Of a DNA stretch of 64,000 nucleotides, positions 14,666-40,336 are shown in pieces; position 1 is the first letter of the stretch; every line of letters begins with the position of its first letter. The position numbers and the translations under genes were made by a program. The notes under the pieces are model-generated. The model ran no database searches and was not told where the DNA came from. It saw only the letters and a program-made list of their open reading frames with translations. Source of the stretch: an uncultured Pseudomonadota bacterium (lineage in GTDB: Bacteria > Pseudomonadota > Alphaproteobacteria > Rs-D84); contig OOHM01000001.1 in assembly GCA_900320405.1 (NCBI GenBank), positions 2,843-66,842 of the forward strand. The letters run 5' to 3'.

Positions 14666-14780
14666 GTTTTATATCCCGTAGCATTTGAGGTGCAAAAAAA
14701 CAGGCATCGCGTATGTTGCGGGATTTTTTTACCCTTGCAAAGATAAAAGTGCGTGTTATTATCAATACGAAATAATTAAT

Positions 14781-15446
14781 ATGAAAATCTATTCTGATAA
14801 AGTTTTTTATTTAATTGGCGGTCCAAATGGTTCGGGCAAGACAACACTTGCGCGCGAACTGATTGGCGACAACCCAAAAATATCTTTTCTTAATGCCGAT
14901 GATATTCAACGCGAAAACAATGTTAATGCGGCACGTGCGGGGATGATGTTGTTGGGCAAAATGGAAGAAATTTTCTCTATGCACGCATCATTTGCGCTTG
15001 AAACAACACTGTCGGGGAAACTGCATAATAAATTTATAAAACGCGCCCGCGCAGACGGATATAAAATTGTATTTTTATATGTGATTTTGTCGTCGGTGGA
15101 ACAGAATTTGGCACGCGTGCGGCAACGGGTTGCACTGGGTGGACACGATGTCCCAGAATACATAATTCGTCGCCGTTATAATAAAAGTATTTTGAATTTT
15201 GAGCCGGTTGCAAATATGTCTGACCAATGGGAATTATATTACAATGGTGATAAAAAATATGAGTTGTTGGCGCGCGGAGTTCACGACAAAATTGATATAG
15301 TGAACAATCCAAAATACGCTTCTTTTGTTGAACGGCGTGCCCGTGCGTTGTCTGATCACCTGTTGAATTTGGCGCAACGGGGTTCGTCCCAGGCGCGCGA
15401 TATTGCATTAAGTGCTGGTGTGCCGGTTGTATCAATTTCTCGTTAG
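14781..15446 (+). CDS. Zeta-toxin/AAA_33-like P-loop ATPase
   Basis: GGPNGSGKTT, NADDI, FALETTLSG, RVALGGHDVP motifs. Confidence 0.88.
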   Translation: MKIYSDKVFYLIGGPNGSGKTTLARELIGDNPKISFLNADDIQRENNVNAARAGMMLLGKMEEIFSMHASFALETTLSGKLHNKFIKRARADGYKIVFLYVILSSVEQNLARVRQRVALGGHDVPEYIIRRRYNKSILNFEPVANMSDQWELYYNGDKKYELLARGVHDKIDIVNNPKYASFVERRARALSDHLLNLAQRGSSQARDIALSAGVPVVSISR

Positions 15447-15488: not shown

Positions 15489-15520
15489 AACGGATGCGAA
15501 TGCATCCGTTATTTTTTTTA
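15489..15520 (+). terminator. Intrinsic terminator
   Basis: AACGGATGC-gaat-GCATCCGTT plus T run. Confidence 0.75.
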
Positions 15521-15522
15521 TT

Positions 15523-15645
15523 GGGTGGTCAATTTAATCGTACCTTTTTGTCCAGTACTTTTTTTGATAAATGCGATTCAGTAAAATCAATGACTTACAA
15601 AATCACGGGGGTGGTCAAAATAAAGGTACCTTTAATGCCATAATA
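15523..15645. promoter_or_regulatory. Putative invertible promoter (paired serine-recombinase sites), locus A
   Basis: GGTCAATTTAATCG-TA-CCTTTTTGTCCAGT and GGTCAAAATAAAGG-TA-CCTTTAATGCCAT, centres 86 bp apart; same half-sites as at 39557-39676; IHF consensus match at 15585-15597. Confidence 0.6.
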
Positions 15646-15679
15646 TATGTGTATAAAACAAGCACAAAAAGGAAGGGAT

Positions 15680-16186
15680 ATGAGGATTCCAATTTTAACA
15701 TTTGGTGCAATTGCATCAATATTAACAATCAATTCGGTTTTCGCAGATACAACCGTTACATCCAAACAATATGTTGATACCACGCGCCAGGCAACAATCC
15801 CGGCCGCGGGTACAAATTATGATGAAAACGGTGGTGGTGTGTCCGTTGTTACATATACCGAAGATGCTGGGGTACTCGGTGAACGCGGAATTTGTAATGA
15901 CCCTGATGAAGATGATTGTAATAATGGGGACCTGGTCACCAATTCCTTGTTAAACAGTGCAATGGATTGGGTCACAGGGGAATTAACCAACCTGCCGGTA
16001 ACAACGGTCACATATAAAACATGTTATCAGGAAGTAAATGGCGAATGCATCCTGTGGAATTTAACCGATAAATATGTTTATGGTAGATGTCGTAATGATA
16101 GTGATTGTGACTGGATGGATGCTCAGTGCGAGGGTGGACTGTCTGGTTCTTGCAGGGACGGGAAATGTGTTTGTAGTGCGCGGTAA
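15680..16186 (+). CDS. Secreted VTSxxYVD-family protein
   Basis: Signal peptide then ADTTVTSKQYVD; Cys-rich C-terminus with ECILWNL. Confidence 0.8.
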   Translation: MRIPILTFGAIASILTINSVFADTTVTSKQYVDTTRQATIPAAGTNYDENGGGVSVVTYTEDAGVLGERGICNDPDEDDCNNGDLVTNSLLNSAMDWVTGELTNLPVTTVTYKTCYQEVNGECILWNLTDKYVYGRCRNDSDCDWMDAQCEGGLSGSCRDGKCVCSAR

Positions 16187-38926: not shown

Positions 38927-39532
38927 TTACGCCCGCCATTCCATACGCCGTGCAAATCTGCGTATAGTTCCGCGCTGAACATGGAAATTTTGCGCGATAT
39001 ATGATATCGACAATCCCCTGTCCAACATTCTACGAAGAATCAATTTGTTTCGTGTCAATTTCAATTTCTTGGTCTGCGAGGAAAACGGTCGCCCCAGTTT
39101 TCGTCCACTGGCGCGCAGGTTGTCCAAAGACGCTTTGGTTCGTTGACTAATCAGGTTGCGTTCAATTTCCGCCGACAACCCAAATGCGAACGCCATAACC
39201 TTGCTTTGAATATCATTACCCAATCTATAGTTTTCTTTGATTGTCCAAACCTGGCAATCATTGTTCAGGCATCCTTCTAATATTCGCATTACCTCAAGCA
39301 TTGATCGCCCCAGTCGCGATATTTCACACGAAATTAAAATATCGTGCGGGTTCAATTCAGTTAGCAATTGCCCCAGCTTTCGCATATGCAAGGGTTTTCG
39401 TGAAGAAATAGTTTCTTCAACCCAACGGTCTATCTGAATTTTGTTTCGTTTTGCAAATTGTTTTATTTCATAGTGTTGATGTTCACAAGTCTGCTTGTTA
39501 GAACTGACACGAATGTATCCAATTACAGCCAT
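38927..39532 (-). CDS. Serine recombinase, Mpi-like master DNA invertase
   Basis: GYIRVSSNKQ catalytic Ser, EISRLGRS, VWTIKENYRLGNDIQSKVMAFAFGLSAEIERNLISQRTK, C-terminal GRP-HTH. Confidence 0.88.
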   Translation of the reverse strand: MAVIGYIRVSSNKQTCEHQHYEIKQFAKRNKIQIDRWVEETISSRKPLHMRKLGQLLTELNPHDILISCEISRLGRSMLEVMRILEGCLNNDCQVWTIKENYRLGNDIQSKVMAFAFGLSAEIERNLISQRTKASLDNLRASGRKLGRPFSSQTKKLKLTRNKLILRRMLDRGLSISYIAQNFHVQRGTIRRFARRMEWRA

Positions 39533-39556
39533 TTTATATCCCCTTTTTTGTTTATA

Positions 39557-39676
39557 ACTGGTCAAAATAAAGGTACCTTTTTGTCCAGTACTTTTTGCAG
39601 AAAAATTATCTAGTAATTTCAATGGTCAAATTTTTTACGGAAGCCCTGGATAAAAAGTTACCTTTAATGTCATCAT
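39557..39676. promoter_or_regulatory. Putative invertible segment (paired recombinase sites), locus B
   Basis: CTGGTCAAAATAAAGGTACCTTTTTGTCCAG and inverted partner CTGGATAAAAAGTTACCTTTAATG; centres 85 bp apart. Confidence 0.65.
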
Positions 39677-39708
39677 ATAAGGTGTACAAAAAAGGGAGAA
39701 AATCAAGT

Positions 39709-39939
39709 ATGAAACGCATATTTTTATTTGTCACCGCTGCATCAATTATCGGTATTCCGGCATTTGCAAATACAGTTGTCACCAGCCAAACATATGTTGA
39801 TAGCGCGGACGCATTAAAACAGGATAAAATCACCGCCGGTATTGTTTATGCCAAACAATCCAAAAAGGTCTGTGTGCGGTGGTTGGATAATGCCGAACAA
39901 ACCGATGCAAATTGTTTGTTATGGAATTTACCGGACTAG
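39709..39939 (+). CDS. Minimal secreted VTSxxYVD-family protein
   Basis: Signal peptide, NTVVTSQTYVDSADALKQD, CVRW..ANCLLW; 76 aa. Confidence 0.75.
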   Translation: MKRIFLFVTAASIIGIPAFANTVVTSQTYVDSADALKQDKITAGIVYAKQSKKVCVRWLDNAEQTDANCLLWNLPD

Positions 39940-40190
39940 CGTTTAATAGTCTTTTGTGGATTACTGTTTGGAACGAACTTTGCGAATTCACCCAATGTCA
40001 TATGTAATGCGTTCATCACGCACGCAATCGTATATGTTGACGGCCAATGTGGTGAACCATCGCGATTCGTGCGCTTGCTTTTGTTAAATGTTGTAGAATC
40101 CAACCCGGACAACCGTGCCAGGCCCGAACAAGACATATTCTTCCATCGTGCAATATTTGCAATTCCCACCCATAAATCATTATGTGTCAT
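39936..40190 (-). CDS. HTH regulator, paralog of 33030..33275
   Basis: MTHNDLW..SGLARLSGLDSTTFNKSKR..HWPSTY; GGGGG RBS. Confidence 0.85.
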   Translation of the reverse strand: MTHNDLWVGIANIARWKNMSCSGLARLSGLDSTTFNKSKRTNRDGSPHWPSTYTIACVMNALHMTLGEFAKFVPNSNPQKTIKR

Positions 40191-40336
40191 AATCCCCCCA
40201 TTTGTTATTATGAATATATTCTGCCACATTTTGGGGATTCGGTCAAATAATTCTAGTGTTATAAGAAATATGTCTTAAAAAATATGGCGCTATATGGTTT
40301 TTGCGTTTTTGAAACGAATCGTTTTTTGGACAATCG

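What the first reader, a model, noticed from the sequence alone, without database searches (positions are those of the whole stretch)
15523..15679. Orphan copy of the recombinase site pair 24 kb away: a promoter that inversion could assemble
Seen: TACCTTTTTGTCCAGTACTTTTT, TGGTCAAAATAAAGGTACCTTT and TACCTTTAATG(C/T)CAT(A/C)ATATA all recur from the invertase locus. Centre spacing is 86 bp (85 at locus B), and an IHF consensus (AATCAATGACTTA, 15585-15597) lies between the sites. The downstream gene is again a VTSxxYVD paralog. Inverting at the TA centres would place TGGACA 18 nt upstream of an extended -10 (TG-C-CATAAT); as assembled no comparable -35 is in register. Inference: a trans-controlled ON/OFF switch assembled here in the OFF state.
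Basis: partly seen in the sequence, partly recalled or inferred. Interest (0 to 1): 0.8.

Follow-up and report, generated by a model that had tools for sequence, protein, structure and literature searches.

The report
One of 23 tiny flip-switch promoters
The element is one of about 23 near-identical 86-base DNA segments in a small gut bacterium that a single enzyme can probably flip to turn genes for small secreted proteins on or off, a known kind of switch in an unusually small and numerous form.

Summary
In detail: both long strings recur exactly at 39.5 kb, site centres are 86 and 85 bp apart, and both downstream genes carry VTSxxYVD. The copy is not an orphan. The 914-kb genome holds 23 such cassettes, each before a paralog. 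It has one small serine recombinase, which scores just under the NCBIfam cut-off for the Mpi master invertase (260.7 vs 272 bits).

Two of the 23 cassettes have the inner segment inverted between unchanged flanks, giving TGGACA or TAGACA, 18 nt, then TG-n-CATAAT. Two sister species add 3 inverted of 43. Two of those loci are orthologous to uninverted ones here. In related genomes the recombinase-adjacent segment occurs exactly flipped between two assemblies.

Flipping was not seen at this locus: the assembly, contigs of three public runs and both orthologs show one orientation.

Verdict: very probably an Mpi-type invertible promoter, assembled OFF; a new variant of a known kind. The scan met this system before (e1-1254033 in this genome, e1-4898588 in another).

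The parts
15489..15520 (+). Intrinsic terminator of the upstream gene (stem-loop plus T run). It insulates the cassette from read-through.
   Evidence: 9-pair stem, T-rich tail. Equivalent terminators precede the cassette copies printed and the orthologs aligned.
15527..15558 (+). Left recombination site: outer half GGTCAATTTAATCG (15527-15540), central TA (15541-15542), inner half CCTTTTTGTCCAGTAC (15543-15558).
   Evidence: Read. The inner half is exact in 22 genome copies. The outer half varies as GGTC(G/A)AWWWAAWSG.
15549..15565 (-). Movable promoter part, read on the minus strand as assembled: an A7 tract (15559-15565) and TGGACA (15549-15554). After inversion they would sit upstream of the fixed -10.
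   Evidence: The natural inverted copies give TGGACA or TAGACA, 18 nt, CATAAT with TG. The A-run, 3-4 nt, TGGACA pattern is kept in G150 and G128. That it acts as an UP element is recalled knowledge, not tested.
15543..15626 (.). Invertible segment (type 1) between the two TA centres, which are 86 bp apart.
   Evidence: Census: 21 cassettes in this orientation and 2 inverted. Inverted copies in relatives.
15576..15598 (+). Conserved central block ATTCAGTAAAATCAATGACTTAC, which holds the IHF-like match (15585-15597) near the segment's midpoint.
   Evidence: TTCAGTAAAATCAA is identical in all three species in alignment A3. The IHF pattern alone is not significant. IHF-alpha-like and IHF-beta-like genes are present but score under their cut-offs.
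15612..15644 (+). Right recombination site and fixed promoter part: inner half TGGTCAAAATAAAGG (15612-15626), central TA (15627-15628), outer half CCTTTAATGCC, with TG (15636-15637) and the -10-like CATAAT (15639-15644).
   Evidence: A second -10-like TATAAA lies at 15652-15657 (read).
15670..16186 (+). Ribosome-binding site AGGAAGGG (15670-15677) and the monocistronic gene 15680-16186. The product is 168 aa: signal peptide, TVTSKQYVD, Cys-rich C-terminus.
   Evidence: terminator right after the stop; no Pfam match; 189 relatives, all unnamed; invariant VTS..YVD and eight invariant or nearly invariant Cys columns.
38927..39533 (-). Gene of the only small serine recombinase (201 aa, Mpi-like). 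It is the proposed enzyme acting in trans.
39559..39679 (+). Recombinase-adjacent cassette (locus B). Sites are centred at 39574-5 and 39659-60, followed by a 76-aa paralog gene (39709-39939).
   Evidence: The same layout lies next to the recombinase ortholog L110.

Best explanation
The element is one of 23 dispersed miniature invertons of an Mpi-type system in an uncultured, small-genome gut alphaproteobacterium (Candidatus Enterousia group). Each cassette follows a terminator and has two imperfectly palindromic sites, with half-sites ending in AA(A/T)(C/G)G around a central TA, 85-86 bp apart.

The single small serine recombinase encoded at 38927-39533 is inferred to bind both sites, cut at the central dinucleotide and invert the segment. 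The segment carries, at one end only, an A-tract and a TGGACA hexamer. The TG-n-CATAAT element, ribosome-binding site and gene lie outside it.

As assembled, that end points away from the gene and G-rich DNA with no -35 match faces the -10, so the gene is OFF or weak. After inversion the A-tract and TGGACA sit 18 nt upstream of the extended -10, so the gene is ON. The gene is a monocistronic member of a family of about 32 small secreted VTSxxYVD proteins.

Shown:
- the repeat family and the site anatomy;
- the recombinase's family;
- both orientations at paralogous and orthologous loci.

Inferred:
- that this recombinase does the inversion;
- that this particular copy still flips;
- that orientation sets transcription;
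- that a DNA-bending protein helps to close the 86-bp loop.
For: 1. Repeat family. There are 23 cassettes in 914 kb, all in front of family genes. The internal segment is exact-pattern-matched 21 times.

2. Enzyme. Only 2 Resolvase-domain genes exist in the genome: this 201-aa one and a 535-aa large serine recombinase. The small one matches the Resolvase domain at E 7.9e-31. It matches the NCBIfam Mpi-family model at E 8.5e-78 over model positions 2-197 of 203. It has the YIRVSS and RLGRS motifs, aligned to Gin.

3. Both orientations exist.
- In G000, 2 of 23 cassettes are inverted between unchanged flanks.
- In G150, 1 of 21 examined is inverted; in G128, 2 of 22.
- G128 L083 (inverted) has both flanks orthologous to G000 C2:36.5 kb (not inverted) (alignment).
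- G150 L091 (inverted) has both flanks orthologous to G000 C3:409 kb.

4. Core polarity. In G128 the central dinucleotides of the two sites are complementary (AA and TT) in 22 of 22 cassettes, as inversion by a serine recombinase requires.

5. Same enzyme family seen flipping. Next to recombinase orthologs, L117 and L118 (two assemblies) share flanks, and their 139-bp segments are exact reverse complements. Both orientation classes occur among 74 such loci: 31, 5 (a sixth hit, L176, looks mis-assigned), and 37 unclassified.

6. Promoter. The scan finds nothing toward the gene here. It finds TGGACA-18-CATAAT and TAGACA-18-CATAAT, each 10 of 12 with TG, at the two natural inverted copies.

7. 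Insulation. Terminators lie on both sides of the unit.
Against: At this locus only one orientation was seen:
- the assembly;
- the Logan contigs of runs X1, X2 and X7, which carry the assembled left junction to 15555, 15555 and 15552, with no inverted junction among the rows shown;
- the orthologs in G150 and G128.
Contigs drop rare variants, and the one raw-read run (X24) laid 0 reads, so this is a weak negative.

Other points against:
- 61 of 66 cassettes share one orientation, which also fits rare, ancient inversions.
- Type 2 cassettes (13 of 23) keep TGGTCA, TGGATA or TGAACA at the same 18-nt spacing when unflipped (9 of 12 with TG). For them the -35 differs by one base only.
- A second -10-like TATAAA lies in the fixed part.
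- The Mpi model score is 11 bits under its cut-off.
- TA is self-complementary, so in this genome the core gives no direction.
- From recall, I know of no serine-invertase substrate as short as 86 bp.
- The IHF match is not significant alone.
Confidence: 0.65

Rival explanations
1. Fossil switch. The cassette family arose from a working inverton system and spread with the gene family, but this copy, and perhaps most copies, no longer flips at a useful rate. The gene is then simply silent, or is driven constitutively by the fixed TGnCATAAT or TATAAA elements.
For: One orientation at this locus in the assembly, in three runs' contigs and in two orthologs. 61 of 66 cassettes are in the same state. 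Several copies are decayed by deletions of the right site, promoter or start codon: C3:175891, 320386, 325769, 409175. One inverted copy has a mutated core, TG against TA.
Against: Both sites here are intact and identical to the consensus. The recombinase gene is intact and keeps its catalytic motifs. States differ between species at orthologous loci, so inversion has gone on after speciation. A consensus assembly shows only the majority state.
Confidence: 0.2
2. Strength or regulator-access switch rather than -35 assembly. The true promoter is the fixed part, and inversion only changes what lies upstream of about -35 (an A-tract against G-rich DNA, or a factor-binding site), so expression is tuned rather than gated.
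For: Type 2 cassettes have near-equal -35 hexamers in both states. A fixed TATAAA and an extended -10 are present in every copy with a complete outer right half. The A-run next to TGGACA is kept in three species.
Against: For type 1 cassettes such as this one, the unflipped state offers no -35 match at 16-18 nt. Both natural inverted copies have 5 of 6 in the -35.
Confidence: 0.1
3. Not a recombination substrate: either a duplicated promoter-operator region whose palindromes bind a transcription factor, or a small TA-duplicating mobile element (MITE) that landed in either orientation.
For: The sites are palindromic like operators. The type 2 segment ends are 15-of-16 inverted repeats flanked by TA, as in a MITE with a TA target duplication.
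Against: Inverted copies keep both conserved flanks exactly at the same TA pair. Three different inner segment types sit between the same flanks. A cassette abuts the recombinase gene here and in the ortholog L110. Core dinucleotides are complementary in 22 of 22 G128 cassettes. No empty left-outer to right-outer junction occurs among the 19 TACCTTTAATG sites of the genome.
Confidence: 0.05

Closest known systems
Mpi master DNA invertase and its dispersed promoter invertons in Bacteroides fragilis
   Same: One small serine recombinase and many dispersed invertible promoter regions in front of surface-related genes. [quoted passage not shown] The recombinase here matches the NCBIfam Mpi-family model at E 8.5e-78. 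B. fragilis has a promoter locked ON (passage). Here one inverted copy has a mismatched core.
   Different: - Host is a reduced-genome alphaproteobacterium, not Bacteroidota (record titles).
- The model score is under its cut-off.
- Sites are GGTACC-centred here. The sister species G128 has ACGAACG and ACGTTCG, which resemble the Mpi repeat consensus as I recall it; a search for that consensus string found 0 papers, and Coyne 2003 was not held.
- The segment is 85-86 bp against well over 150 bp in B. fragilis (recalled).
- The promoter seems split across the crossover site instead of lying wholly inside (inference).
- The targets are genes for small secreted proteins, not polysaccharide operons.
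Mycoplasma penetrans mpl (P35) lipoprotein family
   Same: A large paralogous family of secreted or surface proteins in a small genome, in which most genes have their own adjacent invertible promoter and switch independently (38 mpl genes; passage read in PMC2268961).
   Different: The candidate enzymes there are tyrosine recombinases (same passage). The enzyme here is a serine recombinase. There is no sequence relation between the sites or the proteins.
Hin/Gin/Cin/Pin invertases (hix and gix sites)
   Same: Small serine recombinase with a C-terminal helix-turn-helix. Sites are imperfect palindromes with an A/T-rich half-site around a 2-bp core. The closest solved structure by sequence is Gin (4m6f, E 4.3e-7). 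As with gin, the recombinase gene lies just outside one cassette.
   Different: The similarity is distant. Those systems act on one local segment of about 1-3 kb and need Fis and an enhancer (recalled). No enhancer or Fis was tested here. Those enzymes do not serve 23 dispersed targets.

Membership tests
Serine recombinase (resolvase/invertase) superfamily | N-terminal Resolvase catalytic domain with the serine nucleophile and the RLGR motif, plus a C-terminal helix-turn-helix | tested here: met
   Pfam PF00239 at E 7.9e-31 over residues 3-144, with weak HTH_38 and HTH_28 matches at 165-197. The alignment to Gin shows GYIRVSS and RLGRSM.
Mpi family master DNA invertase (NCBIfam NF009949) | Whole-protein score over the curated equivalog cut-off | tested here: not met
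   260.7 bits against a cut-off of 272, at E 8.5e-78 and full length (2-197 of 203). This is a close relative, not a certified equivalog.
Mpi-type system | One recombinase and many dispersed target regions with shared repeats | tested here: met
   23 cassettes on 4 contigs. Only one small serine recombinase gene. That it is the acting enzyme is inferred.
Mpi-type system | Target regions are found in both orientations | tested here: met
   2 of 23 (G000), 1 of 21 (G150) and 2 of 22 (G128) are inverted. Two are orthologous to uninverted loci. This is not met for the finding's own locus.
Mpi-type system | The promoter lies within the invertible region and orientation sets expression | tested here: inconclusive
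   Consensus scans place the -35 inside and the -10 outside. Type 2 cassettes score 9 of 12 even when unflipped. No transcript data were obtained.
Mpi-type system | Inversion depends on the recombinase | not testable with these tools
   This needs genetics or a heterologous assay.
Hin/Gin-type invertase switch | Fis-bound enhancer and a single local invertible segment | not tested
   No enhancer search was made. The multi-target layout argues against it.
IHF-assisted recombination | A functional IHF site between the crossover sites, and IHF encoded in the genome | tested here: inconclusive
   The pattern is present at 15585-15597 but is not enriched (12 against 6.6 expected). The TCAA block is conserved while TTR is lost in G128. 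The IHF-alpha-like and IHF-beta-like genes score 97.5 (cut-off 111) and 72 (cut-off 115) bits.

The most novel reading that the evidence does not exclude
These are the smallest natural serine-recombinase invertons described so far. The loops come in 85-86, 107 and 135-140 bp classes, about 8, 10 and 13 helical turns, closed with the help of a bending protein bound at the conserved central block. The promoter is cut in two by the crossover site: A-tract and -35 inside, extended -10 outside. With 23 copies in 0.9 Mb, one enzyme would give this reduced-genome symbiont millions of combinations of secreted Cys-rich proteins. The self-complementary TA core would also let any two cassettes recombine, so the same enzyme could reshuffle the chromosome.
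Probability: 0.35. Interest if true: 0.7.

Novelty: new variant of a known kind. Interest (0 to 1): 0.55.

Why it matters
Multi-locus promoter inversion by a master serine invertase is textbook for Bacteroides. Here the same logic appears in an uncultured alphaproteobacterial lineage with genomes under 1 Mb. The only paper on Enterousia genomes that I opened has no occurrence of recombinase, invert or phase variation (PMC12306168, passages). The listing of 16 papers naming Enterousia shows none on this topic by title.

About one switch per 40 kb is a very high density. The 86-bp size and the apparent split of the promoter at the crossover point would test how short a serine-recombinase inversion loop can be. 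They would also give a compact natural design for recombinase switches. The regulated family (189 unnamed relatives, no Pfam) is probably what this organism shows to its host, to phages or to its neighbours.

Tried and rejected
- Exact right-junction pattern in 200 other species genomes of the family: 0 matches outside G000. The sites diverge too fast for exact patterns.
- Metagenome scan with the 18-mer of the left site: 20 hits, 0 of 20 with a cassette, all chance.
- Read laying: X24 (raw reads) laid 0 reads, so it is no test. Logan contigs break inside the repeat. Depth in the cassette bins is about 35 times that of the flanks, which fits a multi-copy repeat.
- The groES-side locus as a synteny anchor: the upstream gene end and groES are apart in most relatives, so it was not usable for orthology.
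- Protein Atlas look-up for the 168-aa product: no usable hit.
- Structure of the product: mean pLDDT 62.9 and pTM 0.25, with only residues 70-168 moderately confident. The Foldseek PDB search gave no match at E <= 0.001. The best rows (E 1.3 and weaker) are about 35-residue cystine-stabilised mini-proteins, too weak to use.
- Flank BLAST often paired the gene-side flank with a different G000 cassette. Those hits are multi-copy paralog matches (3-7 hits each) and were not read as rearrangements.
- Papers: Coyne 2003 (PMC193581) and Johnson 2015 (PMC4384473) are not held. 'Split promoter' with 'phase variation' and 'invertible': 0 papers.
- Sigma-54 and recombinase-directed promoter readings of the left site were considered by eye and dropped for lack of a fitting second element.

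Full report
**Observation.** TGGTCAAAATAAAGGTACCTTT lies at 15612-15633 and 39559-39580. TACCTTTTTGTCCAGTACTTTTT lies at 15541-15563 and 39574-39596. Both are exact, and for each string none of 100 shuffles gave any match. The palindromic core GGTACCTTT occurs 4 times against 0.19 expected. Reading the sequence puts the TA centres at 15541-2 and 15627-8 (86 bp apart) and at 39574-5 and 39659-60 (85 bp apart). The IHF-like string sits at 15585-15597, but the consensus has 12 matches in the window against 6.6 expected, so it carries no weight alone. The downstream genes encode MRIPILTFGA...TVTSKQYVD... (168 aa) and MKRIFLF...VVTSQTYVD... (76 aa).

**Not an orphan.** The window is part of a 914-kb, 4-contig genome. 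A census anchored on the inner segment finds 23 cassettes.
- Nine are of type 1 (as here), 13 of type 2 (a different inner sequence with nearly symmetric ends), and one is the recombinase-adjacent type.
- All 23 precede members of the VTSxxYVD family, which has 32 open frames with the motif.
- In 17 the ribosome-binding site and start codon are intact.
- Four carry deletions that remove the right site, promoter or start codon.
- Two have an extra palindromic insert before the gene.
- Upstream terminators are usual. The gene here is followed by its own terminator, so it is monocistronic.

**The enzyme.** The minus-strand gene at 38927-39533 encodes a 201-aa serine recombinase, with Pfam Resolvase at E 7.9e-31. 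Its best NCBIfam match is the Mpi-family master DNA invertase model, at E 8.5e-78, 260.7 bits and full length, but 11 bits under the curated cut-off of 272. The nearest solved structures are Gin, Bin3 and gamma-delta resolvase at E about 1e-6 to 1e-7, and the catalytic motifs align. The genome has only one other Resolvase-domain gene, a 535-aa large serine recombinase. Relatives of the small recombinase (140 found, the best 80 at 66-79% identity) lie in assemblies titled Candidatus Enterousia or Alphaproteobacteria from ruminant, horse and other guts.

**Does the segment invert?**

Within this genome, 21 cassettes have the arrangement of the finding and 2 have the inner segment reversed between the same flanks.
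- C3:371.9 kb lies next to groES. Its right core is TG instead of TA.
- C3:265.7 kb has TA at both cores.

The exact cassette pattern occurs in 4 of 151 genomes of the genus: G000 21 times, G150 30, G128 18 and G245 once. Of the cassettes I read in the two sister species, 1 of 21 in G150 (L091) and 2 of 22 in G128 (L083, L085) are inverted.

Flank BLAST ties inverted and uninverted copies to the same chromosomal positions.
- Both flanks of L083 match G000 C2:35.5-36.3 kb and 36.6-37.4 kb, where the G000 cassette is not inverted. Alignment A1 shows the flanks aligned and the marker block TTCAGTAAWWTCAA on opposite strands.
- L091 is likewise orthologous on both sides to the uninverted G000 C3:409 kb cassette.
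- The uninverted G150 L060 shares its upstream flank with the inverted G000 C3:371.9 kb copy.

In G128 the central dinucleotide is asymmetric. The two sites of a cassette carry complementary cores (AA with TT) in 22 of 22 cases, the geometry that gives inversion rather than deletion with a serine recombinase. These copies are paralogs, so they are not 22 independent trials.

Next to recombinase orthologs in more distant Enterousia genomes lies a 135-140-bp segment between related sites. L117 and L118, from two assemblies, share flanks, and their inner 139 bp are exact reverse complements. A crude classifier finds both orientation classes among 74 loci: 31, 5 (a sixth hit, L176, looks mis-assigned), and 37 unclassified.

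**This locus itself.** I found no inverted form. Logan contigs of runs X1, X2 and X7 (three studies) carry the assembled left junction up to 15555, 15555 and 15552. No inverted junction appears among the rows shown. The raw-read run X24 laid no read, so it is no test. Contigs drop rare variants and depth was only 16-34, so a minority state would be missed. The orthologs in G150 (L082, both flanks) and G128 (L073, upstream flank) are in the same state.

**What inversion would do.** The consensus scan finds no promoter-like site upstream of the start codon pointing at the gene in the finding's locus. At the two natural inverted copies it finds TGGACA-18-CATAAT and TAGACA-18-CATAAT, each 10 of 12 and preceded by TG.

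The end of the segment that carries TGGACA also carries an A6-7 run 3-4 nt further out, in all three species. From recalled knowledge this resembles a proximal UP-element subsite; I did not test that.

Against a simple ON/OFF, type 2 cassettes keep TGGTCA, TGGATA or TGAACA at the same spacing when unflipped (9 of 12 with TG). A second TATAAA also lies in the fixed part. For type 1 cassettes such as this one, the unflipped side is G-rich and offers no match.

**Loop size and bending.** Centre-to-centre distances fall in classes of 85-86 bp (all three species), 107 bp (a third segment type in G128) and 135-140 bp (the recombinase-adjacent segments of other species). These are about 8, 10 and 13 helical turns, which would suit tight, phased looping. 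That reading is inference from few classes.

The central block TTCAGTAAAATCAA is identical in the three orthologs, while its surroundings vary. The genome encodes one HU-like protein and two IHF-like proteins whose best matches are IHF alpha and beta, under their cut-offs. A role for IHF is possible but unproven.

**The regulated protein.** It has no Pfam or NCBIfam match. It has 189 relatives, all unnamed and where named by a source from Alphaproteobacteria assemblies. The VTS..YVD motif is invariant, and eight cysteine columns are invariant or nearly so. The model is poor (pLDDT 62.9) and has no significant fold match.

**Comparison with known systems.**
- It works like the Bacteroides fragilis Mpi regulon, where one serine invertase inverts 13 regions, seven of them polysaccharide promoters (passages in PMC4747536 and PMC10403206).
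- It also works like the Mycoplasma penetrans mpl family, where 38 genes each have an adjacent invertible promoter and the candidate enzymes are tyrosine recombinases (passage in PMC2268961).
- It differs in host lineage, site sequence, the very short segment, the apparent split of the promoter at the crossover site, and the kind of genes controlled.
- Broad inverton surveys exist (PMC11602134, passages).
- I found no paper on such switches in Enterousia. The listing of 16 papers shows none by title, and PMC12306168 has no occurrence of recombinase, invert or phase variation. Supplements were not opened.
- This scan had already called the same cassette family an invertible promoter switch on another contig of this genome (e1-1254033), and a similar 107-bp switch in another genome (e1-4898588). 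I treated both as leads and tested the claim independently here.

**Verdict.** It is a new variant of a known kind.

Noticed in passing
G000 C3:371905-372400 (locus L030 1663-2160): The inverted cassette next to groES has TA at its left core but TG at its right core, which should block further exchange. It may be a locked-ON family member, like the locked polysaccharide C promoter of B. fragilis. Its protein has a degenerate motif (VVANRTHVN).
   Followed up: partly
G000 C4:211006 and C4:80160 (outside the window); G128 loci L073, L075, L077, L079, L087: Between the cassette's ribosome-binding-site region and the family gene lies an extra GC-rich palindromic insert, repeated in several loci and in two species. 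It could be a small mobile or structured 5'-leader element.
   Followed up: no
G150 loci L076 and L092: Two cassettes stand back to back and share one middle site made of two TGGACA-bearing halves, driving divergent family genes. This three-site layout could swap one promoter end between two genes.
   Followed up: no
G128 loci L075, L077, L095-L099, L101, L104: A third, 107-bp inner segment type carries a terminator-like hairpin with a T run and a TTGACA hexamer, so orientation might also control read-through there.
   Followed up: no
G000 C3:175891, 320386, 325769, 409175: Four cassettes have deletions that remove the outer right half-site, promoter and/or start codon, leaving start-less family genes.
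   Followed up: partly
locus L154 (record titled Bacteroides fragilis): A 70%-identical recombinase with AAACGAACG and AAACGTTCG sites sits on a contig labelled B. fragilis. This is either a mis-binned Enterousia contig or a sign of transfer between the two lineages.
   Followed up: no
contig ends: G000 C1 end, C2 start, C3 start; many G150 and G128 contig ends: Assemblies often break within about 300 bp of a cassette. The repeat alone explains this, but cassette-to-cassette recombination was not excluded.
   Followed up: no
window 14685-15446 (+): The gene just upstream of the cassette encodes a 253-aa P-loop protein with weak AAA_33 and Zeta-toxin matches (E 5e-7 and 1e-6).
   Followed up: no
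window 39936-40229 (-): A 97-aa protein with a weak Cro/C1-type helix-turn-helix match (E 0.0046) converges on the small paralog gene beside the recombinase locus.
   Followed up: no
window 15751-15878: In all three contig runs one contig skips 126 bases inside the gene. This is probably a paralog or allele lacking 42 codons, not a change at this locus.
   Followed up: no
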